DNA of 64,000 nucleotides from positions 1,038,913 through 1,102,912 of the forward strand of contig CAJINV010000019.1 of assembly GCA_905178155.1 (NCBI GenBank). Reading direction: 5' to 3'. Both the position numbers and the translations under genes were made by a program. Shown here one piece after another: positions 8,990-64,000 of the stretch. The notes under the pieces were generated by a model. It saw only the letters and a list, made by a program, of their open reading frames with translations. It was not told the DNA's origin and did no database searches. Position 1 is the stretch's first letter; each line of letters begins with the position of its first letter. The DNA comes from Amoebophrya sp. A120. Lineage: Eukaryota > Protista > Dinoflagellata.

Positions 8990-10520
8990 CAAGGCTTGGC
9001 CGCCAATCACGACCACACGAGTAGACGTCCGGGACGCCGGCCGCGCCGGTCCGGAAGTGGTCGCGGCCCCGGGATTTCCCAACAAAGCGGGCGCGCGAAG
9101 GAAAGCCGCCGGCGAGAAAAAAAGGTCGCGCGCCGCCCGCCGCTGGCGCCACAGGCACGCCACCACCGAGAGAACAACGGGAACCGAATAGAGGAACCCC
9201 GCCCGGCCCGGCGGGCCGGGGCCGGCCAAAGACAAGGGACGAGGGCCGGGGCGCCGCCCGCCGGGTGGCCAGGCGGTTCGACACGACGGACCTTGGCCGC
9301 CGCCGGCCTGTACGTCGGGAGCCTACCGGGGGCGGGGAGGCGTGAGGGCGGCGCGGCCTGCGGCCGAGCGGCCAAACTAACTGCGGCGCGCCCGGGCCGA
9401 CGCGCTCGGCCCCCGGCCCGCCGGGGCATGGCGCCGGCGCGCCTCTCGGGGCCCGGGGCAGGCGGGCGGCGCCGGCCGGCCGGCCGCCTGCTTGCTAATA
9501 CATTTCCCCGGCCGGCCTCCGCGTCGGAATTGAAGCCAAACCGACCGGGAGTCCTGCCATGCTACCCGGCTTCCGGGGTGCGCCGAGAACTGCGGGGCCT
9601 GCCCCTGCATCACACCGAGGGCAGGCCGGGCCGCGTGTATGCTCCCGCGCCAGCCTTGGATGGGTGGCGCGGGGGCCTGCGGTCGGACGACGCTACGCGG
9701 CGAAGCCAAGCAGGCGCGCCACATCGCTCTGCGTTTTGCCTGCAAGCCCGCCGTAGCGAACGGCCGGCCCCGGATGAGAATCGCCGCGCGGCTTCTTCAG
9801 AGACAAGCCGCGCGCGCCAGGGTCGGCCATTTTTGGCGCTACGTCGTGCCGGATGGCATTCCATCCACATACACCCGGGGCGGCACACCTGGCAAGTTCT
9901 CTCACGGAAAAGAGCGCGGCGCGTTCCATCCTCATACAGCTCCGCTTTTAAGCGGGCCACTTCCTGCTCAAGCCAGGATATTTGCTGGGGGGCGCTCTTT
10001 GTAATAACATTAGCGCAGACGCAATATTTTTGAGAGCCCGGCGCCCTGCAGTCGTCTCCATATTTTGACGGTCTGCCCTCGAGTTCGCCGGGGCGCGGGG
10101 CGGCCGGGCGGCTCCCCGCCCCACTGCACGAGCACGGCCGCCCCGCTCATTGACGGGCGCGCCCAAGAGAAGCGCGCGGGGCCGCTCCCCTTGCGCCTAA
10201 AGCATCACCCCCGGGCCGCGCACGCCTGCCAAGGCCCGCCAAAGGCAAGAGCACCCCGAGCCGCCATCGCCCGGCGCGCGACTCGCGGACGAGCGGGCGC
10301 CTCGCTCGACTGACAGGCTCAGCATGGCCTTGGCCGGTCCCTCGCGAAGGCAAAAAATCGATCAAGGGGCGGCCGCCCGCCGCGTTTCTTCCACCGCCGC
10401 CACAACCGCCAAACACGGCGACGGGGCGCCTGGCTGGCCGCGGGGCTGGCGGCCTTGTAGCCACGTAGCTGGCCGCTCGTTGCCTGCCATTGAGTTGCCT
10501 GCACGTTGCAAGTACTAGCG
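8990..10520. other. very GC/CpG-rich intergenic island
   Basis: Abrupt compositional shift, dense GGCC/CCGG/GCGC, only low-complexity Arg/Ala/Gly/Pro ORFs. Confidence 0.7.
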
Positions 10521-10871
10521 CGAGGCCTACCCTTTGCTCCTCTTGTCTTCTTCCCGCTCGAACAACTGGTCACCTCTCTCTTGAGACCTGGCTTCGTCCT
10601 GCAACGCCGTAACACCAAGATGAACTTATCAGAAAAATGCTTGATTGCATTTACTCTTGTTTGAAATTGCTTTCATAGTCGTTACTTTTTTCAGATACAT
10701 TGCTGCCGACCGGCCTATAAACTGGTGCATGGTCACAGTTTCAAGCATTTATCGTACAAAAAGAGCAGCCTGAGCATCAGAGAAAGTAATAGAATGGGTC
10801 TTCAGTGGTAAAAACATTTGCCAAAAAAGTGAAACATCACGAACGAAAAACTTATTTAACAGTGAGTCAGT

Positions 10872-13800: not shown

Positions 13801-15402
13801 GTCCTGATCAACTGGTCCGGGTTGTACGGCTGTGCTGCTGCCGGAAGGCGAAGTATTGTCCTGCTGCAGGTTGGTTGTTCTAACGCTGTGAAATTGGCCC
13901 ACCTTTGCCCCCACAGATGCAGCGTTTTTGTTTTTCCGTGGCGGGGGCGGTAGGTAATCCAAACCCACGATGCAATCCGCATCGATTTCCTGCCCTGTCA
14001 GATGCACACCTCCGACCACGCCAGCAGAAGATGTGGCGACGCCACCTGGAAGTCGTCCGGCGGCCCCAGAAGATTGCTTGGAATTCAAAACGGAACCACC
14101 AGCAGGAAAAAACTCTTCCCCAAAAAGGCCCGGTTTATTACTCCGCAGCTCCTCAATCTCCGCCGATTGTTCTCGCAATGCCCACAGCTGCCGCATCACG
14201 TCGTCTAGCTGCTCACTCTGCTTGCTTTGGCTTTCTTCCCCACCCGAAACCGAGCCGTAGCTCGCCGTATCGAGATGAAGATGGTTTTGGTTTTGATTTT
14301 GATGCAGCTGCTGCTGCTGTTCTAACAGTTGCACCGCGGAGAAACTGAAGTTATTTTTCGACGCGAAAGATGAAGCGCTGCTGCTGTTCATCGTCGTCCC
14401 GCTAGCAGTTTGTTGTTCAGCAGACGGGTCAAACAAAAATGGCCGGTTTTCCACCTCTTCGTATCTTCGGAAGTGCTGCTGCTGCGCGCTAGCAGAGCGT
14501 GTGGCTGCAGGTGCGGCTCCAGCAGCTCCTCCTCCCGCTGCACTGTTCAGTTTTTGTCTCTTCGCCCTAGATGGGTTTCGTAAGCCCGAAGAAGAGGAAT
14601 TCTGGCGGTCCGACGCAAGATTCGGTTTCCAATATTCCGCATTGAATCTCCGGTGCGCCTCCTTCCAGCGGAGCATCAGTGGCTCTTTTTTCACAGAGGA
14701 AGTACTAGCTGTCCCTGACGTGGTGTCGTTGGTTTCTTCAACGTCATGTGCTGTAGGTCCGTTATTTTCACGAACCAGCACTGTGCCTGCGCTTGCATGT
14801 TGATTTGTTATTTTTTCGTCTAGTACTGGCTCTGCTTCCGTCTCCGTCGAAGTCGTCGGGGGCGTGAAATGCTGGTCCACCTCCCGCTCATTGTCATTCC
14901 CCTCTCCGTCGGTTTGAAGCGCCTGCTGTTTCACTGACGCTGGTTGCCTTCTTGACTGCACACTCGCATCGCTGTTGCCGTAATCAACCAAGTTCACAGG
15001 AGATGTTGATGTCTTTCCTCCTACCGGAAGCGCAGCTTGGTTGTTATCTTTTTTTTCTCGTGGGTTTTTCGGCACACCGCTCGTTGATGAAACCTCGCCG
15101 AGTTCTTTTCTACTGCTTTCGCACAGGACTTGATCTACGTCTACCGCAGATTCGACTTCTGTACCTTCAGAGACTTCGCCTACTCCTTGCCCTTGTGTGC
15201 CAAGAACTGTCGTTCCTTTATTCCCAACCACCCGTCCTCCCTGTGAACGATTTGATGTTGGTACTGTTGGAGGACTCGCTTTTCGCCCCCCCGGGGAGGA
15301 CTTTGGTGGGGGAAAGCGGGTGGCTTTCCGGTTTTTGTTCCTCTTCCGATCCGGGCTGGAGGGGGGGATATCTGTAGTTTTTGATTTCCGTAAGAGCAAC
15401 AT
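10872..15402 (-). CDS. large low-complexity Ser/Ala/Gln-rich hypothetical protein
   Basis: 1191-aa ORF joined in frame to ORF 11062-11751 by a canonical GT-AG intron at 11898-11993. Last exon tentative. Confidence 0.75.
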
Positions 15403-27273: not shown

Positions 27274-30200
27274 TCATGCCCCACCCACCGCGGAGCACGG
27301 CAATGCGGTTGATGAGACCAAAGAGCTGTTCTTTCCCAGGTCGACTCGCAGTCTTTTCGTCGGACTGTCACTCAATACTGAAGCTGCTCCTGCTGCGATA
27401 TCATCTTCTTCTTCTTCTACCATGATCGACGCGCTAGTTTTTCTGTCGCTGTTCTGTAAGCAGTCCGTACTCGGCGAAGCGTCAACTTCTACCGCAACAT
27501 CGGCTTTCGTAGTTCTTCTCGACGTTATTATATGATCCGTGGTTGCTGTAATTATCCCCACCCCTAAACATTCCAGCACGTTTCTCGCGATTTTCGCCAC
27601 CAAAGGCGGGCACACGGCGTTTCCGCACTGGTAATAGAAGCGGTTCGCGTTTCGCTGGTTTTCCACGCAAAACGTCTCTGGAAAACCCTGCAGCCGTGCG
27701 CATTCCCGCAGCGTGAAAAAGCGCGGCGGGGGGAGATTTTCAACACTTTCATTTTCGTGCGTTCCGTCTTCATCCCTTGGATACGGCACGAACTCGGACT
27801 GCACCAAGTAGCCAGATTTGTACCGCGCCGTCAGTGTGCGTGCGAGGTAGTCCAGCTCCACGATGCGCTTTTTTGGTTTTTTCGAACTGGTCCACGATCG
27901 GTGGCTTTTCACCTTCTCCCACTGAGTGTCGGTTAAAAGGACGCTTTTCAACTTTTCGGGGTTTTGTTCCAAGGCGGTATCAGGCTCCAAGATGTCGCGG
28001 ACGGTGACAGGTCTGATTTGACGTAGCGAGGCCGGTGAGTTTGACGAAAGTGATGTTTTTTCCATTGGCGGAGAGAGATCAGATTGGTTTTCTGTTCCAG
28101 CATTGTGGCTTTTTGAATTTGCGGCTCGCCTCCAATCTTGGTCCCCGCAAGAGGTCCTCGTGGAAGAGGTGTCTACTCTCATGTCACTGTGGCTGCAGCT
28201 TGGCACGTGTTTCTCGCCCCCGTCGATGTGTTGGCGTTCCTGTGGTGGCTCGGGCCAGTGGAAATCGAACTCGGGAGAAATATTCTGGTCCAGCTCCAGT
28301 CTTGCTTCAGGCTCAGTTCTTTCACAAGAAGGAGATGCCATTCCACCCCCCCTTCTCATCAAAAACCCGACGATATACAGCCGATCCCGGTTTTGCGGAA
28401 CAACATCCGGACAGACTGCGTGGCTGTTCAGGACCTTGTGGTGCACCTCGTATCCGCAGTCTTGTTCTAATAACTGTTTCACCGTTTCAAACACCTTCCC
28501 GTCCTCCAGTTCCAACAACCCGGGGACGTTTTCTAATAGCAAGGCTCGCGGCTTGAGGCTTTTACTGTGTTTCAGCAGTCTGACGATCTCGAAAAACAGC
28601 TGTCCCGGGTTTGCTAGCTCGTTTTTTAGACCTTTGCGGCTGCTGCCGGTATCAAAGTGAGAAAAACTAGATTTATGTCGCCCCTGGTGCCTCAATCGCG
28701 TTCGTACCTACTAGTGTGTTGAGTACTAGAAATTTAAATGAAACACGGGCAGAGGGAGTAGATGTGGAGAGAAACTAGAACTACTACTACATTTCAATTT
28801 GCATGACAATCGATTTCGCGCTGTTGATTTAAGCATAAATATGTTGCAATTGAAGCTGAAGCGACATGATATCACTATTTTCTGCATTATCATACTTGGC
28901 TTTTGAAAAAGACTGGCAGGGGAATCCGGCACAGAGGAGGTCGAGTTGGCCAGTAAGGGGGCAAGCGGGTAACTTCTCTAGCGTCGTGATGTCGGTATTG
29001 AAGCCAAACAGGGGCTTTCCGTGATTGACTTCGTACAAATATCTTGCCTCCGCGTCGCATTCCGAGGCCAATAGACAGGTCCCGCGCAGGTGGCAGAAAT
29101 TTCCCGACTTCAGGCCGCAGGAAAACCCCCCGATACCCGCGAACAGGTCGACAAACGTGAACTGGGGCAGATTTTCTGCGGTTTTTGTCGGGTGGACAGC
29201 GACACCGGCGTCTGGCTGCAGTTGCAGGTTAGAGACCTGTAGTTCTTCCCCCGCAGTACTGCCATAACTTGTGGACATCGCTGGGCTAACACCTGGGAAA
29301 ATCTCGTTCTGATCTTCGACCGCATCCCCGTCGCAGCCACCTGCTGCGGCCGAGTTGTTCTTCAGTTCATCTGCGAAACGTGTCGACGCAGTAGCATAAT
29401 CCTTCAGAAGATCATGATCGACGTCAAGAACATCGAGTTCCACAAGCTTGACACAAGCTGCTAGGCTCTCGGGAAGCACGTGGTCTTTCATTTTTCCATT
29501 CCTATCTTGGCCCTTGCGAATCATGTTCTTCTTGCCCATCACGTCGAAATTCGGCTCACCACAATGATCGGCCTGCGCTGTTGGCTGCGAAACACCTTTT
29601 TCATGTTTTTCTGTGCGATGTGCTGCGCGCATCAGGCACGAGAAGAAGAAATCCCATTGCGTCCGGGTTAGGGGAACAAATTTGCAGTCTGTTATGTCTA
29701 CCGTACGAGAGGAACCACTGTGGTCCATCAGCGCGCACTCGCCGTTAGGGTCGGAACGAGATTTTGTTGATGCGGCCGGAGAGCATGGTGCGCTCCTACC
29801 TAGTGATGGACTCGTTATCTCGTCTGCTGCTTCAACTTCGTTGTCATCTCGTCCTCTGCACGCGGGCTCGCGTTGTAGGGACGAGGAACAGACCTGTTGC
29901 GTGTCTGGTCCCGTCTGGCTCGGGGATGGCTGTGCGACCTTTCGCTCACGAAATCGACAGGCCGCGATGACATGTTGGATCCCGTAGATCGCTATTTTTT
30001 CTGTCGTACTCCTAGTTGTTTCCACTCCCTCAACGGACCTGTGCCGTACTGTACTTGACGATGCCCGCCCTTCTGCGCTGTCCCTCCTGCCCCTGACATC
30101 ACTGACAGAAGTCAGCTGAGGTCGCGCTTTCTGTGACAAGCCAGCAGGACTTGTGTAGCCAGTCCTCTCTGCATCGTTGGTAGAAGCCGGGCTTATTTTT

Positions 30201-30700
30201 TCCACAAAGAAAACCTTCCTGGGCGTCCACAGTTTGCGATTTGCTTTCCTTTCAAAGTCTGTTCTAGCCCTGGAGGGTTCATCTCGTTGCTCCTCGCCGC
30301 GCAACGCGTAGTTTGCCAAACCTGCTGCACTTGCTCTACCCGCTACTTCTGCCACCTCATGATCTTGCGACAGCACACGTGCAAAGTATATTTCCTCTCC
30401 ACCAGCTGATGTCATCTGCCGGCAGCTTTCCGTGGCGACACCAGGGGCATGAAGTGTGTCCCGCTCTCCACGCGAGGAAGGGTAGTCGTCGTGTGCGCTA
30501 CCTTCATCGGCGACGGGAGGCCTCTTCCCTTTCGACGTGACGCGTCGGCCCCCAGATGGAGTGTCGAGACCTGGTGAAACTGTGCTGTCTAATCGCGCAT
30601 TTGTATTTGTGTCGTTGGTGCCACAAAAGGTCGCTTCCAGCCATTTCAGGGCTGCGGCCAACTGCCCCGGAGGAACGAGAACGCCCTGCTTGTGATTCAT
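27274..30700 (-). CDS. C5 DNA (cytosine-5)-methyltransferase with a long N-terminal extension, two exons
   Basis: Motifs in order: I DLFAGIGG, IV GFPCQSFS, VI LLENVPGL, VIII QNRDRLYIVG, IX TLRECARLQGFP, X GNAV. Confidence 0.92.
28650..28894. mobile_element. old, highly diverged introner (245 bp)
   Basis: TAT...ATA ends, residual TIR (GAAAA.TAG..ATGTCGC), DR decayed (GCCGG/CTTGG). Removing 250 nt gives FSKAGSSRKG. Confidence 0.7.
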
Positions 30701-31930
30701 AATTCTACTTCCGTGCGTGGCTCTCGTTGCCGTGATTCATGATTCACCAGATTTCTCCTTGCGTGGCTCTAGCAGCCGTAGAAGATGAAGAGCTAAGAAG
30801 CAAAGTGTATAATAGAGGCAAAAGGGTTAAACGATTTCCTCTGCACAACCAACTAATTTTCATGTCTCACACAGAATTCTTCTCCCCAGGTTTGTTCATG
30901 TTCATCAGCCTACCCGCTACGCCATACCGCGTTCCTGTTCCGCTACAAAAATCAGTCAAATTGTCTCGCTCATGTTCTTCATCTTCAGGGAACAACTTTA
31001 ATTTTTGTCTTTGACATCAGATCTTTTTCTTCATCTCGCTGCGATCTCGCTTTTCGAGTACGTAGTAGATCTGACCTGCACTTTTTGTTTTTCGTTTTCC
31101 AACGGCAACGCCGAGAGACTAAAGTATCTACCCTAGCTAGCACACACGAGGACCTCGTTTAGAGCCATTTTCACTGATCATCTGATCCATATTCACGATT
31201 TCAGCTGCGTACGGGAACGCACAAAACAATTTTCTCGTTGCTACACACACGCGCACTTCCTTGTGCGGGCACCAGGAGGTGGGACAAGAAGGCATTCGGT
31301 TTCATTGTTCGAAGTGTAAATGTTTCCCTTACGTTGGCAGCCCCAGCTGCTCCTGGTGTCTTTGTTTATTGTTTTTCCATGGTGCTTTTGATATTGCCCT
31401 CAGGTCAACTCTCTTCGAACTCGTACTTTTTCCGCAGTAACAAGTTCGTTTTCCTTGCGATTGACACCATTGCCCACAGCAAAAGCAATGTGATCACGCG
31501 CCGTATTAAAGCAGGAAAGACCGCGGTCTTGTATTTTGTGCAGCAGATGAAGCTGTAGCCTGCCGATGTTCGTTGCATCTTCAAGAACCTGCGTACTGGG
31601 TGGTAGTCATAGCAGTAGTAGAAAACAAAGAGCTTGAAATATAACTACGTAAGAAACTCGCAAGGGAACACTACGTCACCACCTAGCCTGTGATTAAAGA
31701 TAAGCTCGCTGAGTGGTTGTGCGATTCTTTTCTCGTCTTTGAGCACGCCAGTTCGGGTATTAGTGAATAGCCTTGTCCTACGAACAGTTTCTTGACACTG
31801 TCTGATAGCATCGTCCCTAACGTCCTACCGGGTAGTGGTAGTATGCAGCGATGTTAAAGTGGACACAAAACTTATTCTTTCATGAAATGAAGAATCATCC
31901 AAGCGACGAGAGAACCTTATCCACCAATTC

Positions 31931-51100: not shown

Positions 51101-51475
51101 TTGTGTAGTTGTGTGTATTGCACGTAGCACCGTCGTGGGATTGGGAATGAAAGTAACAATTGCAAGAAATAAAGGTAGTTCATGAGAGTTCTTGTACACT
51201 ATTCATCACATCATGCTTGTCGATCCTTATGCGGCTAGTTTTCTTTTTTGTAAAAATCAAAACAAAATGATTGATTTTATCATACCACGTGCGCAAAGGC
51301 GGCATCGTAGTCATCGTCTCCGGTTGCAACGGCAGCCCGTTTTCTTTTCGTCGTCGAAGAGGAGCTGCTGCTAGAGGCGGTTGCTTTTTGACCTGATATG
51401 ATTTTCATTTTCTTTTCCTCGCAAAAATAAAATCCTTCACGCATTTCTTCATTTTTCCTACGTACTGTGATTTTT

Positions 51476-54400
51476 GATTTTGTTCTTTATTTTCGTCACG
51501 TAAAAATGTAATATCACGTGAAACGGACAGATTTCGGCACGCAAGGTCTCTGCGAGAAGCAAGAAGGGGGGGCATCAGTTGGGCAATGCAAAAACGACAG
51601 CGAGCGCACAACCCCCCACACACGAGCGGCACATAGATATGCAAAAACGAGCGCGCACTTTGATAGTAAAGGGGAACTATCTAGCGGCCCAAAAAAGAAA
51701 AACAAAATGAAGGGAAAACAAGCCCCGCCTGAGTGAGGCGGAAGCAAAAAAAATACTTCTGCGCCTTCGCCTGCCACTGCAGACGCCATCATGCAAAATC
51801 GGCGGGGGGCGCAATCGCGTGTCGTGTCGACATAACATAACAGCACAGCAGTTGTGTCAGGAGGAGGAAAACAACCAAAGGAGAAGCCAAAAATAGGCCA
51901 CGAGCTACGATCTTCGCCTTCCGTTGCTGATCGTAATTCGTGACCAGGCGGCGATACGTCACCGGGGTAGAGCCTCGGGGCTACCGGATGGGAAGACACC
52001 GGGCGCAGGCACGGAAAAACACCTGTGGGGCGACCGAACAGAACACAGAGGAATATAGGGGAAGGGGATTCTCCGTTGGGTACTTTCGGAAGTGAGGAGG
52101 GGCTACAGGCTAAAAACTTTAAAACTCGGGGGCAAGGGCGGCAACTAAGCTATGTGCGTGTTGGCACGCGCGGCCCGTTCTATTCTATATAAAAAAGGAT
52201 GAAAATGAACAAAACTCATACGCTTGTAGTTGTGTTCTTGTTCGACCAAGCACAAGAGGCCCGGTGGGCTCTTCAGTGCGAAAACGGGTGGGGGGGTACA
52301 GCAGGGGTATGGGTCTCTAGGTGGCAGCGAAAGGAATTCAAACAAAAAGCCGCAGTCGCGGTAACTATTCGAAGACAAAAAACCAAGGGATCGGCCCGCA
52401 GGGGTGCAGGTGGTATCTGGGGGCCGAGTGTCCTGCCACCTAGGGTAAATACAGGGGGCCAATTGCCGCAATCTTACAAAGAAAATGCTTCGACTTTGGA
52501 GAGCAAAGTAGTACAGGATCCCCAAAGGGATGTGATGCAAGTCGCGGCCTATGGGACTTTTCTCAGAATGTTCCGACACAACAACTAGAAGCTAAAATCC
52601 CCTGTCCTCAACTCCTGGGTAGATAGTTGCGTTAGGCTCGGACGGGGCAAGTTGATCTCGGGTGAAATCAAAATATCCTGGATTGGGCTTTTCTCTTTTT
52701 ACTTTGTGTCGAACGTAATACAAGAAGAGAAATCCAGTGGACCTTGGTTACCCGGCATCTCCCCCGGGGGATTTTGTTCTTTATTTTCGTCACGTAAAAA
52801 TGTAATATCACGTGAAACGGACAGATTGTCCTCGAAACGCGCGAAGCCTGTTAGCTTCTTTTCTTTCGCGCCACACAATAGGCGTGGCACCCGCGAAAAG
52901 GACTGCGTGACCGCCCAAAAGAAAATCCTCGCGCGCAGGCAGCGCACGAAATTTTCATGCCCACGCGCCTGCCACGGCACTTGGGCGTCGTGCGGCCGTG
53001 AAGGAGCGCGCGCCACTCCAACCGCCCAAAAGACAAAGCCCGCGCGCGCCACGCAGGTCAGGTTGATTCATTTCAACCAATACGCCTGGCGCGGTGCGCG
53101 TGAAGCAACGCGTACCCCCACACAAAAAAAAAGCCCGCGCGCCCGCAGCGCGCGAAAATATTAAATATTCACACAACTCCACTGCGTGTGCCGCGCGGGC
53201 AAGGGGGAGTGTGCGGCCGCTAATAAAAAAAACGCGCGCGCAAATTTTTATTTTTCGATACCAGCACGCCGCAAGATGTGGCGCGCGGGCCGGCGAAAAG
53301 GGGCGCCCGGCTGCTCACACGAAATAGCCCGCGCGCACGCAACGCGCAGAACTTTTTTTCATTTCCGCCGCGCCGCCAGATGCCGCACATAGGCGAGCAA
53401 GAGCGTCCGGCCGCTCAAAAAGAAGCCCGCGCGCGCGCAATGTGCGGGAATATTCTTTATTTCCCCTACGCCGGCCGCCAGGTCGGTGCGGAGTTATTCT
53501 TTCTTTCCCCGCAACGGACTGCGGGCAAAAAAAGAATGAAAAAGCTGAACCCCCCGGGGCCGAAACATGCGCAGGAGCCTTTTTCTCCGTCCATGGGCAC
53601 GGAACGAGAAGAGCACTTTGAAAAACTCAAGCGAGGGCGGGCTTTTGCGCCAGAGGAAGGTCAACAGCTTTTGCGCCAGGCGCAGGCGAAGATCAAACGC
53701 AATTGAAGACAAAGCGGGAGCCGATAGATTCGACGCGGGAGAATCTCTATAGGGAGAATCTCTATTGGGCGTCGGGAGAATTTCTATAATATTTTTTTTT
53801 TCTAGACATGTAATACGTCACGTAAAAATGTAATATCACGTGAAACGGACAGATTGTCCTCGAAAACCTATCCTCTAGGCTGCCCCTAGCATGATTGGGC
53901 TACCTCTGGCCTGCCGGGGCTGCCGAGCAACAAAAGCCGATCTTGCTGGGCTGCCCAGCAAAGACGAAAGTGAAAGCCTGGGCTGCGTGCCAGCCTGGGC
54001 TGCGTGCAGCCCTCTACTGGGCTACCTGCCTAGGCTAGTTGCTAGGGCTGCCAGCCTAGCCGAGCACAGCCTGGCGCGCTAGGGCTGCTGACCTAGCGAG
54101 GCACAGCCTGGCTTTGCTTGGGCTGGCAGCCTAGCAAAGCCTGGGTTGCAGCTGGCTGGCAGCTGCCATCTCAGATAGAGAATCTCCATCTGAGATAGAG
54201 AGTCTCCATCTGAGATAGAGAATCTCCATCTGAGATAGAGAGTCTCCATCTGAGATAGAGAATCTCTATCTGAGATAGAGAATCTCTATCTCAGATGGAG
54301 AATCTCTATTTCGGTTTCGCCACTGGTGGAGAAGCTGCTGAAATATAAGAAAAAGACGTGGGAAAACAGTAAGAAACAGAAAAAGAAAAAAAGAAAGAAA

Positions 54401-54560
54401 AAACAAGAAAGATATTCCATCCCTCATGGAGAATTTCTATTCTCCTCCGAGAATCTCTATTTCAAATAGAGATTCTCTGAGATTTTCTATTTCGAGAGCC
54501 GTATTGTCACGTAAAAATGTAATATCACGTGAAACGGACAGATTGTCCTCGAAAACCTAT
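51476..54560. repeat. four dispersed direct copies of a 39-bp core separated by three long inserts
   Basis: GTCACGTAAAAATGTAATATCACGTGAAACGGACAGATT starts at 51495, 52789, 53817 and 54506. Confidence 0.95.
54166..54305. repeat. 20-bp minisatellite, 7 copies, quasi-palindromic unit
   Basis: Unit CYATCTSAGATAGAGARTCT repeated in tandem. Confidence 0.95.
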
Positions 54561-56312
54561 TCTCTACCTGTTTCCTTTTTCCCGCTGGATCCGCTGGAGG
54601 TGGATTTTCCCACGAGTACGTCCACTGTCTGCACCCTGGTAAGTTCCTGGTCATCCACCTCCAGGTCCTCCATCAGAGACACGATCGGCGCCCGTCTCTT
54701 CTGCGCCAAAGGACTCAATTTTTGCGCGTTCGGGTTGAAGGGCACGACTTTCTTGAACCTGTTCGTAAGTGAGTAAAAAATAAATGTGTGTAATTTTCTA
54801 TGCACGACGAGAAATCTGTGCAGCACTTTCGCATGCTGATAACATTTTTTTCTTTTAGTTTCACTGCACGCATCACAGATTGTTCTCATGCCTGGAGAGA
54901 ACTTCATTGTCAATCGGAACAATCTTCGCAAAAATAACTACAGACGTAAAGAAAAATAGTACCCGCTCCTGACGTAACTCCGACTCTTCATGTAGGATTG
55001 CTGCTGAATCTCCCGCCGGATCTCCTTCGTCGTTTGCACGGTGGTGAGGCGCTTGGCCAGTAACTCGTTCTCCATGTAAATTCTTCGGGCCTCCATCCTT
55101 CTTGCCCCCTGTGCCTTCGCGTCCGGAGATCGCATGCGGTCCAGCATCTCCCCCGGTTTGCCTGTCATAGTAGAGAAAGAGGTTTTGGTTTTGTGGATAA
55201 CAATTCTTGTTTCGCATGCGACATCACAGTCTACTTTTTCTGTGAAACACGAACGACCGAATCCTCCTGGTAGGTCCTCTATGGACTGTAGGTCCTGAGG
55301 AGCAATCGTATGGATGCATCATACATAAATAGAAGCGAAGATGTAAAAGCCGTATCGACTGCATGTAGTAAGAAAGTACCTTGTGGCGGCAAGTAACCTT
55401 CTCCGTTTCGGATGCTGACTATTCTGTCGATAATGCGCTTGTATCAAAATGAAAAATCCCCCCTCCCCATATCAAAGTGGAAATTTATGATGCTGATTTG
55501 CGTACACAAATCCGACTTGTCTTGCATTATGGCACTCCGGCCAGATCCGCAGCCTAGGTGGGAGCGCTCAGGTCTAGTTGCTCAGCATTGCAAACGGCTA
55601 CCCTCTAGGACCAACAGCATGCCAAATCGCTTCACAATTGGCCGGATGCCTCTGCACTTGTCTTCTTGCAAGACAAACCTGATTTGCGATCAAAAAGCAG
55701 CAACACAAATTTTCGGAGACATTCCTTTTCAATATGGGGAGGGGGGATTTTTCCTCTCAATAGCTTGTTATCCTTGCCCAGAACTCGATTCTGCTCCGCT
55801 AACCGATGGGCCCGAGCCATCTCGACCATCTTCGCGCGCGTGCCTGATAAGTAATTTTGTGTTTTCCTGCTTTTCTTTGTTCTACTACGCACCACTACAC
55901 GACTTGCACGACCACGCTTCAACAGCTGCAGCTCAGAGTCAATAAAACCAATGCACATCAAGCGCCTGCTTAGCATCTGCATCGAGTGGACTACATATCC
56001 TGTGCAAAAGTATCGCTCTCGTAGTAATCGCAATTACGCATTACAAATCTGGTTCCCAAGGCAAATCAGCATGACAAATTCCATTTGTCATGCTGAGCAG
56101 GAATTTGTCATGCTGAGCGAATTTGTATTGCAAGCATTGAATCTAGTACCGTCCGCGCATCCGGGTGGTGTGTTGTCGATATGGGACTGCGCGTTCATGA
56201 TTCGGTCCTTCATCTTAAAGTAGTCCCGCTGCCAGGCTCGCTGTTCCGTGACGGGTGCACGCCAGAGCGGCGGCGCGGGCACCGGGGGCCCCTGCTGCCG
56301 CTGGTAGTACAT
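54557..56312 (-). CDS. CFAP97/hemingway (KIAA1430)-domain flagellar-type protein, multi-exon
   Basis: Motifs KDRIMNAQSHIDNTPP, EQNRVLGKDNK|RIIDRI and ARRMEARRIYMENELLAKRL fit the family pattern (from recall, not a database search). Confidence 0.65.
55442..55762. mobile_element. introner family B (321 bp)
   Basis: B-type TIR; DR GCTTG/GCTTG. Confidence 0.95.
55996..56149. mobile_element. family C introner remnant with one TIR lost
   Basis: Left end TATCCTGTGCAAAAGTATCG and the interior match 22539-22688 inverted; the right TIR is absent. Confidence 0.8.
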
Positions 56313-57497
56313 GATCTTTTTTTCTCTGCAATAAGATCTGGCTGCTCTCGTCCTTCAGCTGCAGAAAATACACCAGTATAGAAGTACAACCGCCACTTAT
56401 GCTTCTAGACGTATGAGAAAAAAAAACACAGCTTCCCGCTAGGAAAGTCGGAGAAGTAGGGGGTGTCGGATTTATTAGGACTTCGATTCAAAAAAGTTGT
56501 ATAGGCCTAATATACGGTACTATTTCTATTTGGTTGTAGCAGTCCTTCTAGGCGGGCTCTTGCTTAATGTGTTCTGGAGCGTTAAGGTTGTTCTACTTGT
56601 AAACGGCTACTGTAACTGGTTTGTTTCTTCGGACTACAAAGTTTTGCTGTAGTTCACTTGAGCTGCACTTGGAGACCACGCTGTCAACCAGTTGTACAAC
56701 TTCTAGACCACGTAGTCAACGGCCTGAGGTGAGGGTACTAAAAACCAAACGTCGTATGAAGTTGTATTGCCGGATAATTTTGAGCACGACGCTGAAAAAT
56801 TAATGTGAAATTAGTATAGTAAGTTAGTTGTCCTGTGAAAATAAAGTTGCGGAAGTGAATATGGTCACAAGAACCTCTGAGTTTTGGTTCCATGTTGTAT
56901 GTGTCTTTGTCTCAACCACGAAATGAGTAGAACGTACGTTGATATTGTTCAAGAAAGACATTGTTGAAGAACGACGTGCGTGCGGTTTTTCTTTTCCCAA
57001 AAAAAATCACAGAACGAAGAGACGCAACAGAACGTTCGTTTTGTTCTTTGGACGACGTAGTACTTCTCTATTTGACAACGTTTGGACGAGGGGTCACGAA
57101 TACTGTCTTCCCACACCGAGTCGTGAGAAAAGAAATCAATCTGTGAAGACTGTTTTTTGATGAAAATGTTTTTTCTCCTCGAGCGGAATCAAGCAAGAGA
57201 AGCTTGACACGAACCGAATCAAAGAAAGAACAGAAACAACTTGTGCATTCCATTTTTCCAGTCTTTTGTGGGTATCTCGAACGAATGATTTCCGAACTTT
57301 GGCGTGAGCATCTTGCGTGTTCAACCAATCGGTCAACATTGGTGGAGAACCTAAATTTCGTTTATTCCCATTCCCTGAAAGCATACCCTTCCCTCTTCGT
57401 TCTAGTCGTAGAAAGTAGGATAGTTTTCTCGGTTTTCTTACGTAAAAATACGCACTTCTGTCAAGCGCAGTCGTGTTTTTATTCTTAATTCGGTCTT

Positions 57498-58360
57498 TCA
57501 TACACTCGCTCGTATATGAAAGTCGTTTTTTAGTTTTCGGTATCTACAAAAGACTTGGGCCAAGTAGAAAAATAGTAGCACACCGTGTAGCTTGTTTCCT
57601 TTGATGCCTCCCTTGTACTCATGTACGGTACCATCCGCGGTGGTCCACTGGAACACTCCCTTCGACGGCTTGTCGTCCTTCCACTCCCCCTTGAAAACGG
57701 AGCCGTCGCAGTACCTCATGGTGCCTTTCCCCGACCGCTTTGATTTGCTCCACTGCCCTTCGTAGGATGGTTCCTGGTTCCCCGCGCAATCGGCAGCATT
57801 AGAGTGGTACACCATTTTCCCGTACCCGTTTTGCGTGCCCCCCTCGATCTCCCCGATGTATGCGCGCAGAGATAAAGAAGGGGGGCTGCTTTCTTCGGTT
57901 TCATCTTCCGAAGGAGCCAAAGGCCTGTTTTCCGCCACCAGAGGAGGTGGATCATGCTCGCCCACAAGCACAACGAATCTTTGCATCCCGAACCATTTGC
58001 CAGGCGCGCGTTTGGCGACGGTATCGTCACAGTACGATTGCAAAGCGCCGTCCACTATTAAATGCAAAAATGTCTGGGTCTGGAAGAGTCATGCTGTTTT
58101 TGCATGACACTGAAGGTCTGGCATGGAACCTCTAGCATCACAGGTTTCGAAAAGCTTCCGCAATGCCGAATCCGCATGACAAATCCCCCATTTTGGGCAC
58201 AGAAAGTGGATAGCTTTTGCTACCTATGCATGCCAGATTTTTCTGTGTCCTGAAATGCGCATCACAAGTTACATCCTTCCAGCCCCAGACATTTTTACAA
58301 TCCATATCCAATGATTCTCTATTTGGCAACGTTTGGACGAGGGGTCAGCACGAATACGCC
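57498..58360 (-). CDS. MORN-repeat protein, partial paralog of 59360-61919 (possibly a pseudogene)
   Basis: YIGEIEGGTQNGYGKM, YEGQWSKSKRSGKGTM, FKGEWKDDKP; high nucleotide similarity to about 60800-61205. Confidence 0.7.
58056..58306. mobile_element. introner family A (251 bp)
   Basis: A-type TIR; DR TCCAC/TCCAA; absent from the paralog. Confidence 0.95.
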
Positions 58361-59359
58361 TGTACAACTTTTTGCGTTGAAAACTACGTGACGCGTGTTC
58401 TACTTCAGTTTTTCTTCATCTTTGTGGATCCCCAATTGCAGTCCACATCAGGAGAAACATAGCTAGAAAAGGAGTTCCAGCTTCTTCCTTTGAGTTTGCA
58501 CGAACTGATGGTAGCGTCGGACGGACTTTCATCATTTTTCACGTACAATAAAGTACTTACGTCGTGGGGGCACGCTGCTGCCTCTTCGAATGCATCCACC
58601 GCCGAGTGATGTTGAACAAGATGAAGTACATACACAGATAAACGCACGGAGCGCTTCAACAAGTAACAAGTATAATGCCCAGAAGATTTATCGTTACCAG
58701 TCTCATTTACTGCTGGCAATTCGAACAGCTCGAGGACCACAAATTCAATCTCGTCGCTTTTCCTACTTTTACAAAAAAAAATGTGTTTTTTCAACATGGG
58801 ATTGATTCATTGAAGAGAAAATTACATGTATGGTTGACAAAGAAGTGTTAGCAAGCACGATGGTATTGTTTTGGAATTATGCTTGAAACTAGAAGATTAG
58901 GCTTTTTGGGAAAATGTCAGGACTACTTTATGAAAGAAGTATGGGGATACTTACGGGAAATTAAAATCGTCTCTTGTTTGAAAAAATCGTCGTAGTGGGG
59001 GCTACTTGGTATTGCTCTCGCAATCGGATACGGATTTAGTTTTAGAGTGGTACATCTTTCATCAAACGACTGCAAATGGAAAGTCGAAGTGTTTAGTAGT
59101 ATATTATTTGCGAAACAAAGTATAGTTTTTTCGCAGCGTTGCTCCAAAAAGAAACGAAAACTTTAATATGCTAAGAACAAAACGAAAAGAATCAAAAAGT
59201 GTGCCGAAACTACAAAAGTGAACTTCTTCTGAACCATTGAACGAATTTTGATAATCGTGAGGATCATGGGGCAGCTAGTCCTAGCTGCCAGTCGCTGCTG
59301 TCGCGGGACCGTCCTACACGATGAGGTCGCCGATGTCCGTCCCCCACGATGTGGGGTCG

Positions 59360-61919
59360 TCATCCTTCGTCTGGGCATCTCGCCGTCGCCTCAGAAGTCG
59401 TGCCGCCCGGCACCAGATAGCAGTCCACTACGCTCCAATAGCGGTTTTGCTCTTTGGCGAACATCAGGGTCACCGTTCGTTCTTCGGAGAACATCAGTGC
59501 AGAAGTCGAAGGAAGGCCTCCACCGTTCTCATTCTTCGGAAAGTACTGAGCAACTGCTTCTTCGGCAACCCGCTCCCGCGGCACAAAGCAGGCACCAGCC
59601 TTTTGCGGCAGAGGATAAGGCTTGTTTGTCAGCGGCTCGGTACTACTTTTTTTTGTCACCACACGCACTTCGAAAACTTTTGCGAGGGGCGCCAATAGCT
59701 CCTCCGCCGGAAGAGTAGCGGGTGTAGTACCGTGCTGGGGGTGCTCCACGAGTCTTTTCCGAACTTCCTCTGCCTTCCAGCCGGAACGATTTTCGTATTG
59801 CAGCAAATTCAGCTGGTCGGCAAAAGCGTCGAAAAGGGAAGACGAGGTATCGTCCGCCTTGTTTTCGAAGGAGGTCAAATGGAAGCCATTCCGAATGACA
59901 CGCTTGAAGCCGACTACTGGGGCCCCGTTTTCGTACTGGCAATCATCTGTATTCCGAAAATCCGGCGCCAACATCAGGACTTCGGTTCCGCTGATAAAAG
60001 CATTCTCTTCCCACTGTCCGGTTTTCTCTATTTCTTCAAGGTACCGATTTGGATTCTTTGCGTAGTTTTCTTGCGGCCCGTACCCTTTTAGCGTGCTTCG
60101 CCGGAAGATTCTGTATTCGGATTTTCCCCAACCGCCGTGTAGCTTGTTTCCTTTGATTCCTCCCCTGTACCGATGCTCGGATCCATCCGAGCATCGCCAG
60201 ACGATGTTCGCCTCACCGATCCAATCGCTGTCGAAGACTTCCTTCTCCTTTCCGTTGATCAGTTTTAATGTTCCTTCAAACTCTCTTAAGAAAGAATGTT
60301 CCTTGACAATCTTCGCGTCATCGCAAGCGCCCTCTGGTGCTGGCCCTTCGTATTTTTTGGGATGCGCCGGCGGCTTGTAGACCCGTTTGTTATACGGCAT
60401 TCTCAACTTCTTCCCTTTGTTCTCCCGTCCTTGTATTCCGTGCAAAAACGTCCCCACCTTATGTTTCTCATGCAAATCTGACTGTCCGATGAAATTATTA
60501 CATGTCGCATGCGCAGCCCCACGAGAAGCGTGCTTCCATGCTCTCTGGGAGTGGGAATTTGTCGCGCTCTTCTCAGAATAAGAAAGCCGATTTTTTGTGA
60601 CGCGACTGCACTAGAAGCAGCTAACCAAGAATACACTGGAGACCCAACCTTAATGTCATGCGCAACAGCCAAAAGAACTTCTTGGCTTGTTTGGTACTTT
60701 AGAATCACAGCCATCTCAACAAGTATGGGGTGGGGACGTGATATCTACTCAGGATATCAACTTGCCCCTCGAAAAAACTGCCGTCGCTCAACGTCAACTT
60801 CCCCTTCCACGGCTTGTCGTCCTTCCACTCCCCCTCGAAAACGGAGCCGTCGCAGTACCTCATGGTGCCTTTCCCCGACCGCTTTGATTTGCTCCACTGC
60901 CCTTCGTAGGATAGTTCATTGCTCCCCTTGCAATGAACAGCGTTGGTGTGGTACACCATTTTCCCGTACCCGTTTTGCATGCCCCCCTCCACCTCACCGA
61001 CGTATTCGCGCAGAAATAAAGTAGCGGGGGCGCTGCTTGTTTCTTCGGTTTCTTCCGAAGGAGGTAAAGGCCTGTTTTCCGCCACCGAAAGAGAGTCATG
61101 CTCGTCCACTCCGTCGAATGTCTGCATCCCGAACCATTTGCCAGGCGCGCCTTCGTCGACTGTGTTGTCACAGTACGATTGCAAAGCGCCAGCCAATGAT
61201 TCTCGCTGGGATTTTCTGCCCCGCCATAGAAAGGGATTGATCCACGACGAAACGCTGAAAGTCATCTGGTCCACCTCGCGCAGCAATTCGGGCAGTGTTT
61301 TCGCAAGAGCAGGGGGTTGGACAGGACGCGACAAAAAGGAAAACGGCCACCTGCTCGATTTTTGTGCTTCTTCAGCCACATTCTTGGCCTGCCTCTCCAA
61401 CTCGGCCTCCTTCGCGGTTTTGATGTCAGCCATGTCAGGGCAAGATTCCAGCCTTCTGAGGAACTCATTGCCATCATTCGCCATCCCCCTGGAGCTGGTT
61501 CGGATCTTTCCCTGCACCCTTTTGAAGAAGTCGAAGTGCGACAGTGCTTTCCACTGTTGCCATGATTCGTTTTCGTGCTCTTGGCGTTGGCCAGGCTTAC
61601 GGCATAATTCTCTGCATGCCTCGGACCGAAATGCTGGAAGTGGAGAATCAACAGTACTATGTGCGGGAGCGGGATACACATCAGCCGGGCTCGCTTGAGC
61701 AACATCGTCATCTTCTAAAGATATATCCTCGACTCCTGCGTTCAGTATTCCATCCGCCGAAATCTCCATCAAACTATCTCCCCGTTTCTCTTTTTTGTCA
61801 TTACTCACTTTGCTTTCCTGCAGGGCTGACACACCCAACACCTCATTGGTAGTGACCACGCCGCCGGCGAGAAGCAGCACGGGCGTCGTTCCCTTCCGAG
61901 GTGGCTTCAAGACCAACAT
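59360..61919 (-). CDS. MORN-repeat protein with a hydrophobic N-terminal segment
   Basis: YxGxWxxxKxxGxG repeats; two ORFs joined across the element at 60434-60756. Confidence 0.8.
60434..60756. mobile_element. introner family F, diverged (323 bp)
   Basis: AAAAACGTCCCCACC / GGTGGGGACGT TIR; DR CTTG offset by 4 nt on the right. Confidence 0.8.
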
Positions 61920-64000
61920 GTTTCGGAACAGACCCTTAGACAGAGTACTACGTACTTCCTAGAGGTCGTCTAGTGCGGATGAAAGACAAGTTGAACCGAA
62001 GAGGGTCTAGTACAGCTGCCGTTTGATCTACTTACAAACGTACGAGCCCACAGGCACGGGATGAGAGAAGCAATATCTTTTCCCAGAGAAAAAGACAAAT
62101 TGCGCGGGTGGCTAGTAGGAGAGGATTAGTAAGTAGATGCACTTACTTACTCCGAAACGAAATGAGTTTGCTTGCTTGTTTTATGTGATACAGTGGGACC
62201 ACGACACGAAAAGTTTTTACGAACAAGTGGAATCGCAATGAATTCGCGAGAGACTGTAAAGTAAATAAATATAAAAACAGTTTTTGAAAAGGATATAATG
62301 AGTAGAGTAAAGAATTCATCTGATATACCTCGTTGCAATAGTGCTTGGAGCTTTCTCCGATTTTTCATCGGCTCTACCTACTGACTCCACGCACAGATGG
62401 TCCACCTCACGCACTGCACGACCGACGAAAGATAAGTAAGTGCTGTGTGGAATCCACCGATTTTTGCGTTCGCACGGTCCAGTTTAGTGTTGCACGAAAG
62501 TTCAACGAAGAACCGAAGTGACTGTCTTGAACGAGAAAGAACCGAGGACGAGATTCTTCTGAAAACAGATTTACCGAACATGTACTTTCTTGGGCGCGTG
62601 TAAGTAGAAGTTGCGTTGGAACGTAGAACCGATGCGGTTGCTGAGAAGTACAAGAACTATAATCGCTGGTATCCTTACGAATTTTTTCACAACATAAGTT
62701 AAGTACTACGTGCGCACGATCATGACACCAACTACAGGAGATGGACAAGAAGAACAACAACTTAAACTGAGCTTAATACTGCGCCGTCTTCTTGGGAAGA
62801 TGTCGACGGACGGCAGTTCAAGAGAGACTGCGCCAGCTTGTTCGGCGTCCTGATCAAATTTTTGCAATTCTCGTCGCATTCCACATCCACTTCATCGTAC
62901 AGGAGGAAATAAGAACTGAAAGATTCTTCTTCTTGTTCCGGAAAAATCTCATAAGTACACCCTCTTGTTTCATCGTCCAGAACTTTATCTACGTCGAAGA
63001 TTCTTCGACGACCACTGCGCAGGCGCAGGGGTTCTACTTCTTTATTTTTTTCGCTTTCATAAACTAGTATCCTTGAAAAACTTGTGTTCGAAGATGTTGA
63101 GCAGGATCATAGATAAGTAGTCCCTGGAGGGACCACCGGTTCTTCTTGCAACTCGAAATAAACTACGAGTCTGGTTCTTTCTTTGACACGGAGGTGACAG
63201 TTGTGACACGACGTTGCATAGAATATGTTCGTAGTTTCAGTTGCAGTCGCAGTTTCCCATGCTGCCACATCAACAGCGCTCGTTTCAAATAAAAACAGCC
63301 TGCTGAGGACCTTTTCGTTCGACTAATCCTGTTTAAAACTTTTGTCCGACGCCTTCTGCCCACCGGCCACGGAGGGGCCGAGGAATTCGTGTTTTTCTAT
63401 TGCATTGTTGAAGACGGTAACTTTGATAAAAAGATTGTTCCCCTGCTCGCGAAAGCAGGAAGTGAAGTTAAACGAAAAATAAGTGCGATATATTGAGACT
63501 ACGGAAACAGGATCCAGCACCAGGGCGCTTTGTAAGGTGCCAGAATCTTTGCTGGGTTCTCACAACAGCCGCCCTGGGTCTACTTCTTCACATGCTGCTC
63601 TGGCGCGTCAACATTTGGCGTGAATAAAAGTCGACTAGATGAACCAGAGATGCTGCAGCGAAGTACAGATACTCTCTGATGAACGAATTTTATGGTTTCA
63701 GATTCTTTAGTATGGTTTTAGAAGTTTTAGGAACAAAAATTACTTATTAATGCGTCTAAATAATATGAAACGAAATGAATCTACTTCACAGACGATCCTT
63801 TCGGCCAGCAACGGCCACCGCAGGTGTCGCACACGGAGGTCGCGAGGAAGAGTAGTTGCACAAACGATATACAGGAGCTCAACCGCTTATTTGGAAGAGG
63901 TGCTCGTCCTCGTCACGGATCTTCAGCTAGAAGTGGTTGACACGTATAGAAACACCACCAGTACGGAGTCGTACCCGTAGAAGAGGCGCTCAGTACAACA

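What the first reader, a model, noticed from the sequence alone, without database searches (positions are those of the whole stretch)
51476..54560. Repeat-insert array: three long inserts at one site, each with its own staggered 50-58 bp duplication
Seen: an identical 39-bp core occurs four times. Adjacent copies share different extents: 58 bp (51476-51533 = 52770-52827), 50 bp (52788-52837 = 53816-53865) and 55 bp (53817-53871 = 54506-54560). Removing inserts 51534-52769 (1236 bp), 52838-53815 (978 bp) and 53872-54505 (634 bp), each with one duplicate, rebuilds a single site just downstream of the CFAP97-like stop codon. The inserts differ in composition from each other and from the genes, and carry no introners. 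Inference: repeated site-specific capture of DNA with unusually long target duplication, architecturally like a giant-spacer array or an integration hotspot. It is unrelated to the 5-bp-DR introners.
Basis: partly seen in the sequence, partly recalled or inferred. Interest (0 to 1): 0.85.

Follow-up and report, generated by a model that had tools for sequence, protein, structure and literature searches.

The report
Mobile elements stacked inside one intron
Three different repeated DNA elements sit in a row inside one spliced intron of a marine parasite's gene, separated by 50-61-base copies of the surrounding intron sequence, and a related genome has similar stacks at unrelated sites, so this is likely the scar of an insertion process with unusually long target duplications, not a CRISPR-like memory array.

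Summary
The repeats are confirmed: a 39-bp core four times, with staggered extents of 58, 50 and 55 bp (61 with one mismatch). Short-read contigs break exactly at three predicted edges. The whole array lies inside a 3175-nt GT-AG intron that transcript contigs skip, and the 'stop codon' is intronic. The inserts are not unique spacers: each has other copies in the same sample, one end of each coincides with a family terminus, and those copies lack the core. In 0.55 Mb of a related assembly I found 7 more inserts with 30-70-bp duplications at 5 unrelated sites, 2 of them staggered stacks. One insert is a 5' piece of a Penelope-like element. Several junctions carry short copies of the target. Best reading (0.45): a retroelement enzyme, working in trans at nicks 50-60 bp apart, likely jumped between templates and the target, probably in one event. 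Rivals: serial targeting of an introner-end motif present in this core, or host break repair. No empty site, long read or enzyme was seen. The scan noted this insert class before in this genome (e1-10627074). Interest 0.5.

The parts
51393..54567 (-). GT-AG intron, 3175 nt, holding the whole array; 164 nt if the inserts and extra copies are subtracted
   Evidence: Transcript-type contigs of X3 and X5 (one sample) join 51390 to 54566; splice ends and open spliced frame
54568..54758 (-). Exon upstream of the intron; the gene continues past it (weak Hemingway/CFAP97 match lies in the exon before, 54963-55163)
   Evidence: Pfam PF13879 E 0.01, 17 bits, below the 25.6 cut-off
51286..51392 (-). Exon downstream of the intron
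51476..51533 (.). Target copy 1 (58 bp, continuous with the left intron flank)
   Evidence: contig ends at 51505 as predicted
51534..52769 (.). Insert 1, 1236 bp, no recognised gene; body about two copies, right end shared with at least three other places
   Evidence: no Pfam match for 3 frames, no Rfam match, no homolog for one frame
52770..52837 (.). Target copy 2 (68 bp)
   Evidence: contig starts at 52808 as predicted, single-copy depth
52838..53815 (.). Insert 2, 978 bp; degenerate 97-bp tandem repeats, palindromic motifs near the right end; another copy starts at about the same left end
   Evidence: period 97; record 5
53808..53815 (+). 8-nt junction stretch identical to part of the target
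   Evidence: 0 of 77 interior windows match the target this well
53816..53877 (.). Target copy 3 (one mismatch at 53872)
53878..54505 (.). Insert 3, about 628 bp; 37-bp and 17-bp repeats, seven 20-bp palindromic units at 54166-54306; another copy ends at 54500 without the core
   Evidence: record 6
54506..54566 (.). Target copy 4, continuous with the right flank and ending one base short of the splice donor G
   Evidence: contig starts at 54531 as predicted
51500..51509 (+). 10-bp motif that matches positions 9-18 of introner ends (also at 52794, 53822, 54511)

Best explanation
Three low-copy, non-coding repeated elements lie head to tail inside a spliced intron, each between long copies of the intron sequence, and they were likely put there by a retroelement enzyme working in trans that would nick the two strands 50-60 bp apart and jump between templates and the target, probably in one event. 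Shown: the geometry, the intron, the dispersed copies, similar stacks in a relative. Inferred: (1) the repeats are target duplications (no empty site seen); (2) the two nicks lie 50-60 bp apart; (3) after copying one template the polymerase switches to the single-stranded target overhang, recopies it, and switches to another template, which gives staggered target copies between unrelated elements without any need for a specific target sequence; (4) the enzyme is a LINE or Penelope-like reverse transcriptase. The stack persists because the intron is still spliced. It probably has no function for the host.
For: Other copies share the right ends of inserts 1 and 3 and the left end of insert 2 and then run into other DNA (3 contigs loose behind 52770, agreement 0.52; records 5 and 6). 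Insert 3 looks cut at its left end relative to another copy (13-nt loose end; weak). Same footprint in a relative: 7 inserts at 5 sites, duplications of about 30-70 bp, 2 of 5 sites stacked; independent random insertion predicts 0.0015 pairs within 20 bp. The 6 targets share no sequence (15 pairs, lowest p about 0.1), so enzyme sequence specificity does not explain the stacks as a class. 4 of 20 junctions carry 8-19-nt copies of the target, and the middle copy at L058 differs from two identical outer copies, as expected if it was synthesised anew. Lineage has a candidate enzyme: the L038 insert is 47% identical over 345 aa to the N-terminus of a 1181-aa protein, and its relatives carry GIY-YIG plus a YxDD reverse transcriptase motif. 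Retroelements are known to give long variable duplications (Dualen over 50 bp, R9 126 bp: PMC9977147 passages); duplication length is set by the nick distance and ends with a template jump to the target (PMC2881922 passages).
Against: No poly(A) or simple-repeat tail at any end of the 9 insert sequences scanned; the nearest is a T10 run 15 nt inside insert 2. The L038 piece lacks its 3' part, the reverse of ordinary 5' truncation. The palindromic arrays near the right ends of inserts 2 and 3 look more like protein-binding sites of a DNA element (inference). No Penelope-like protein is encoded in the window. The left 370 bp of insert 2 has no identical sibling (single-copy depth), so no fresh donor was seen. 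16 of 20 junctions show no target-copied filler. This core, unlike the 5 relative sites, holds an introner-end motif, which suits serial targeting. The middle L058 copy could be part of an element.
Confidence: 0.45

Rival explanations
1. Serial insertion: retroelements that prefer the motif of introner ends hit this intron three times, each insertion regenerating the target, and are spliced out with the intron.
For: The core holds a 14.7-bit match to the introner-end profile, reached by 0.2-0.3% of background windows and 0.5-1.5% of AT-rich ones; 18 of 19 outside hits of the 10-mer are in introner ends. Inserts 2 and 3 share one boundary, 5 bp before the motif, and related right ends. Unreviewed notes report introner-targeting retroelements in this genome.
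Against: The motif was spotted after the fact. None of the 5 relative sites has it, including both stacks. Insert 1 uses a boundary 19 bp away, and its other copies run into unrelated flanks. 1 mismatch in about 169 duplicated positions suggests similar ages.
Confidence: 0.25
2. Host repair: a staggered break with a 50-60-nt overhang was filled in and captured loose DNA (element copies or cDNA pieces), with repair polymerase switching back to the target between pieces.
For: Cargo is heterogeneous and includes broken pieces (L038; L019 second insert starts in mid-frame). Target-copied fillers. Overhang fill-in gives small tandem duplications (PMC8355091 abstract). Yeast breaks capture 2-4 joined fragments (PMC11372161 passages). 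Agrees with note e1-10627074.
Against: Insert ends coincide with family termini, which random fragments would not. The yeast passages read do not describe target copies between fragments. The narrow length range needs a nicking enzyme with a set spacing.
Confidence: 0.2
3. Assembly artefact or mixed alleles: single inserts at one site in different cells, or circles, were chained by the assembler.
For: No contig spans the array; with 31-base words the order cannot be read, and an empty site would be invisible. X1 and X2 may be the source sample.
Against: Three contig edges fall exactly where the array predicts (51505, 52808, 54531). The copy 2 / insert 2 junction has the depth of the flanks (46.6 against 43.1 and 47.2). 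A second assembly shows the same architecture.
Confidence: 0.06
4. A dedicated acquisition locus (CRISPR-like giant spacers) or a recombinase attachment site.
For: Four identical cores; the core has a short inverted repeat (6-bp arms).
Against: Both boundaries vary; inserts are repeats of the same genome; other copies carry no attachment-site copy; no viral match in 3 scans; unrelated targets elsewhere; the site is an ordinary-looking intron.
Confidence: 0.04

Closest known systems
Non-LTR retroelements with long target duplications: Dualen-4b of Chlamydomonas and R9 of rotifers (PMC9977147, passages)
   Same: Long, variable duplications flanking the insert, explained by the distance between two nicks
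   Different: Here the inserts are short, non-coding, tail-less and from several families, and they stack with target copies between them; no enzyme is linked to them
N-terminal GIY-YIG Penelope-like elements, Naiad/Chlamys (PMC8557442, section 9)
   Same: A relative's long-duplication insert is a 5' piece of a protein with this domain order; Chlamys often hold tandem repeats and lack hammerheads
   Different: Window inserts encode no such protein and show no partial-tandem repeat; the text read gives no duplication length; clade membership was not tested by a tree
Insertion with long target duplication in bacteria (Furuta et al. 2010, PMC2853133, passages)
   Same: About 46-bp unique duplications around inserts with no mobility gene
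   Different: Prokaryotic restriction-modification cargo, proven by empty sites; here eukaryotic repeats, empty site not seen
Replitron-1/N1 of Chlamydomonas (PMC10288648, passages)
   Same: Non-autonomous elements near 1 kb, variable duplications, fuzzy extra bases at one end
   Different: No significant terminal hairpins here; no HUH partner seen; no fixed dinucleotide target
Amoebophrya introner elements (PMC7789003 and PMC12130899, passages)
   Same: Same kind of genome; the core shares a motif with introner ends
   Different: Introners have terminal inverted repeats and 3-5-nt direct repeats; these inserts have neither and do not create the intron

Membership tests
CRISPR-like spacer array | Fixed-length repeat duplicated exactly at each acquisition | tested here: not met
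   Both boundaries vary: 58, 50, 61 bp
CRISPR-like spacer array | Unique spacers of foreign origin | tested here: not met
   All three inserts have other copies in the same sample; no viral hit in 3 pattern scans
CRISPR-like spacer array | Processing into small RNAs | not testable with these tools
   The one raw RNA run laid no reads
Amoebophrya introner | Terminal inverted repeats with 3-5-nt direct repeat | tested here: not met
   None of the 42 catalogued elements lies in 51393-54567
Recombinase attachment-site integration | Element carries its own copy of the site | tested here: not met
   Other copies end without the core (records 5, 6 and loose ends)
Non-autonomous non-LTR retroelement | Variable-length target duplication | tested here: met
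   reading as target duplication is inferred, no empty site
Non-autonomous non-LTR retroelement | Poly(A) or simple-repeat 3' tail | tested here: not met
   and the sequence
Non-autonomous non-LTR retroelement | Shared 3' end with 5' truncation among copies | tested here: inconclusive
   Right ends shared for inserts 1 and 3; summed depth rises to the right in insert 2; contig depth is no copy number
Non-autonomous non-LTR retroelement | Autonomous partner with a matching end | not testable with these tools
   No genome held
Penelope-like element | GIY-YIG plus reverse transcriptase reading frame | tested here: not met
   No tblastn hit in the window; present only in the relative's L038 insert
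Penelope-like element | Hammerhead ribozyme or partial-tandem repeat | tested here: not met
   No Rfam hammerhead, no core motif in inserts 1-3 (motif recalled); Chlamys also lack hammerheads
Helitron / Replitron (HUH) | Subterminal hairpin | tested here: not met
   6 of 6 terminal 50-mers fold no better than shuffles (z from -1.1 to 1.1); longer palindromes further inside insert 3 were not part of this test
Helitron / Replitron (HUH) | HUH transposase partner | not testable with these tools
   No genome held
Insertion with long target duplication | Unique duplication over 30 bp, no mobility gene in the insert | tested here: met
Insertion with long target duplication | Empty site in a related genome | not testable with these tools
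   The syntenic contig L069 ends at window 55771, 1.2 kb short

The most novel reading that the evidence does not exclude
Amoebophrya has an undescribed, sequence-independent insertion system, perhaps driven by an N-terminal GIY-YIG Penelope-like element, that cuts 35-60 bp apart and in a single event writes a chain of unrelated elements, recopying the target between each one.
Probability: 0.3. Interest if true: 0.72.

Novelty: new variant of a known kind. Interest (0 to 1): 0.5.

Why it matters
Most eukaryotic elements duplicate a few to about 20 bases (established knowledge). A lineage-wide process with 30-70-bp duplications that stacks unrelated elements at one spot would be a natural record of the poorly understood second half of retroelement insertion (second nick and template jump), and it makes a sharp population test: all-or-none alleles against stepwise ones. 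It also warns that long-repeat arrays in eukaryotes can mimic spacer arrays, and shows a 164-nt intron absorbing 3 kb and still being spliced. I found no description in dinoflagellates in searches or in the passages of PMC7789003 and PMC12130899; their supplements were not read and may list these repeats.

Tried and rejected
Whole-genome search: none held; the relative's contigs are not searchable as genomes. Viral scans for the core, the insert 1 end and the 20-bp unit: 0 hits; metagenome scan for the 20-bp unit: 0. Rfam: 21 weak matches, all under their gathering scores, the best from the palindromic repeat; no tRNA. Terminal hairpins seen by eye were not significant. A dif-like or snoRNA reading of the core was considered by eye and dropped for lack of support. 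Inserts 1-3 have no homolog in 0.8 Mb (146 loci) of the relative beyond one 29-bp low-complexity match. Protein searches: L038 frame, longer proteins, none, then found by the full HMMER search (1 of the 12 hits, P0012, is an unrelated pilin-like protein); atlas hit to GIY-YIG 0.86, lead only; L019 frame, which looked to me like an LTR integrase tail (recalled pattern), had no Pfam match or homolog, so that label is unproven; insert 1 frame none. Of 40 repeat pairs, 27 were introner-end copies, 1 was the outer pair of L019, and 6 were dropped because the enclosed DNA held introners or matched other loci; 6 pairs at 5 loci were kept, and L058 then split into two. Those loci were picked for an introner motif, so the rate is not genome-wide. 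Sequence look-ups of earlier findings gave nothing. The 49-bp duplication of trypanosome SLACS is recalled and was not confirmed.

Full report
Observation. The 39-bp core occurs at 51495, 52789, 53817 and 54506, and neighbours share 58, 50 and 55 exact bases as stated. The third pair extends to 61 bp with one mismatch. The core occurs nowhere else in the window. No genome was held, so I used public runs. In two DNA-type contig sets of one sample (X1, X2; possibly the source sample, so not independent) contigs end at 51505 and start at 52808 and 54531. A 31-mer graph simulated from the window predicts breaks at these three places. The contig over the copy 2 / insert 2 junction has depth 46.6, like the flanks (43.1, 47.2). 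So these junctions are in the reads at about one per genome. No contig spans the array, so order and an empty allele cannot be read.

Context. The window has at least 42 short elements with TAT...ATA ends, inverted repeats and 5-bp direct repeats, matching the introners described for Amoebophrya (PMC7789003 passages); earlier notes label the genome as strain A120 (not checked by me). Contigs of X3 and X5 (one sample, RNA by guess, but they skip three introns) join 51390 to 54566, skipping 3175 nt. The skipped part reads GT...AG on the minus strand at 54567-51393, and four joined exons give a frame with no stop. Subtracting 3011 bp leaves 164 nt; the neighbouring introns are 195 and 204 nt. The CFAP97 label is weak (17 bits, below cut-off).

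The inserts. None has terminal inverted repeats in the catalogue, a Pfam match in the 4 insert frames tested, a credible Rfam match or a significant terminal hairpin. Insert 2 has 97-bp degenerate repeats, insert 3 has 17-, 37- and 20-bp repeats, and both carry a palindromic motif near the right end that is absent from the rest of the window; their last 80 bp align loosely. All three are dispersed repeats. In X1, 124 contigs lie on 3.5 kb, with summed depth up to 540 against 45 (not a copy number). Three contigs leave insert 1 behind 52770 into unrelated flanks, and a contig in X3/X5 does so at 52769. Another copy of insert 2 begins at 52841 after 76 other bases. Another copy of insert 3, in a 13.5-kb contig, ends at 54500 with no core after it. 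Only 6 of 27 loose ends were shown. So the boundaries are element ends and the core belongs to the host intron.

A relative. A scan for the introner end found 146 listed loci of assembly JACKZZ01, 82-95% identical to and syntenic with parts of this window. L069 stops at window 55771, 1.2 kb short of the array, so the empty site was not seen. In 77 loci (about 0.55 Mb non-redundant) 40 repeat pairs passed my filter; after dropping 27 introner-end pairs, 1 outer pair and 6 likely gene duplications, 5 loci remain: L038 (60 bp), L064 (57), L051 (30), and two staggered stacks, L019 (49-50 and 35 bp) and L058 (46 and about 70 bp). L058's first insert has 98-bp repeats, like insert 2 here, though no sequence match was found. 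Random independent insertion predicts 0.0015 such close pairs. The six targets are unrelated. Four of 20 junctions hold 8-19-nt copies of the target that no interior window matches, and a fifth (7 nt) is borderline. At L058 the middle copy has substitutions and gaps against two identical outer copies. The L038 insert carries a frame cut at its 3' side; 11 of its 12 HMMER hits match along this frame, and three or four long relatives have GIY-YIG at the N-terminus with a later YxDD motif, the domain order of Naiad/Chlamys Penelope-like elements (PMC8557442 section 9).

The core motif. The core holds a 10-mer that is the conserved part of the main introner end: 18 of 19 hits outside the array are in introner ends. 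Its profile score is reached by 0.2-1.5% of background windows, but none of the 5 relative sites has it, and I noticed it after the fact. Unreviewed notes describe retroelements that target introner ends in this genome; I could not test them.

Mechanism. Long duplications follow from two nicks far apart, with a template jump to the target at the end (PMC2881922 passages; Dualen and R9 in PMC9977147 passages). [quoted passage not shown] Stacks at unrelated targets, near-identical copies, target-copied fillers and an error-bearing middle copy are most simply explained if one polymerase run alternated between templates and the target overhang. The monotonic stagger itself proves nothing, since any clean stack must have it. 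Against a retroelement: no tails, a 3'-cut Penelope-like piece, DNA-element-like palindrome arrays, no enzyme linked to these inserts. I put 0.45 on a jumping retroelement enzyme, 0.25 on serial motif-targeted insertion, 0.20 on host repair capture (PMC8355091 abstract; PMC11372161 passages), 0.06 on assembly artefact and 0.04 on a dedicated acquisition locus. That it is a real stack of mobile DNA with long duplications in an intron I hold at about 0.9.

Novelty. It works like insertion with long target duplication (PMC2853133 passages) and like long-duplication retroelements, but fails defining tests for CRISPR arrays, introners, attachment-site elements, tailed SINEs and hairpin-ended HUH elements. 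Searches (listings) showed no report of this in dinoflagellates; supplements were not read. The scan had noted the single-insert class in this genome (e1-10627074); the stacks, their recurrence in a second genome at unrelated targets, and the intronic position are what this report adds. Verdict: new variant of a known kind, interest 0.5.

Noticed in passing
window 8990-10560: A 1.6-kb island of 71% GC with no Pfam match in its longest frame, no long flanking repeat and no match in the relative's loci; unexplained.
   Followed up: partly
L038 1886-3549: 5' piece of a GIY-YIG plus reverse transcriptase element with the endonuclease at the N-terminus, inside a 60-bp duplication; the Naiad/Chlamys paper had no mention of alveolates or dinoflagellates in its main text.
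   Followed up: partly
L058 13436-14955: Two-insert stack with repeated partial copies of the target start interleaved with the insert end at 13935-14000.
   Followed up: partly
L019 1190-3746: Two-insert stack; the second insert starts in mid-frame with a stretch that resembles an LTR integrase tail by eye only.
   Followed up: partly
window 52717-52769: A contig in the RNA-type runs X3 and X5 holds a diverged insert 1 end followed by at least 255 other bases; a copy of this family may lie in a transcript.
   Followed up: no
window 27274-30736 (minus strand): C-5 cytosine DNA methylase gene (Pfam PF00145, E 6e-36 for the 27274-28707 frame).
   Followed up: no
window 57500-61950: Tandem paralogous MORN-repeat genes about 3.1 kb apart; the relative's L069 aligns at 55771-57100 and again from 62754, so this stretch is absent or very different there.
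   Followed up: no
window 840-58306: At least 42 introners of several families share an A-tract at positions 11-15 from both ends.
   Followed up: partly
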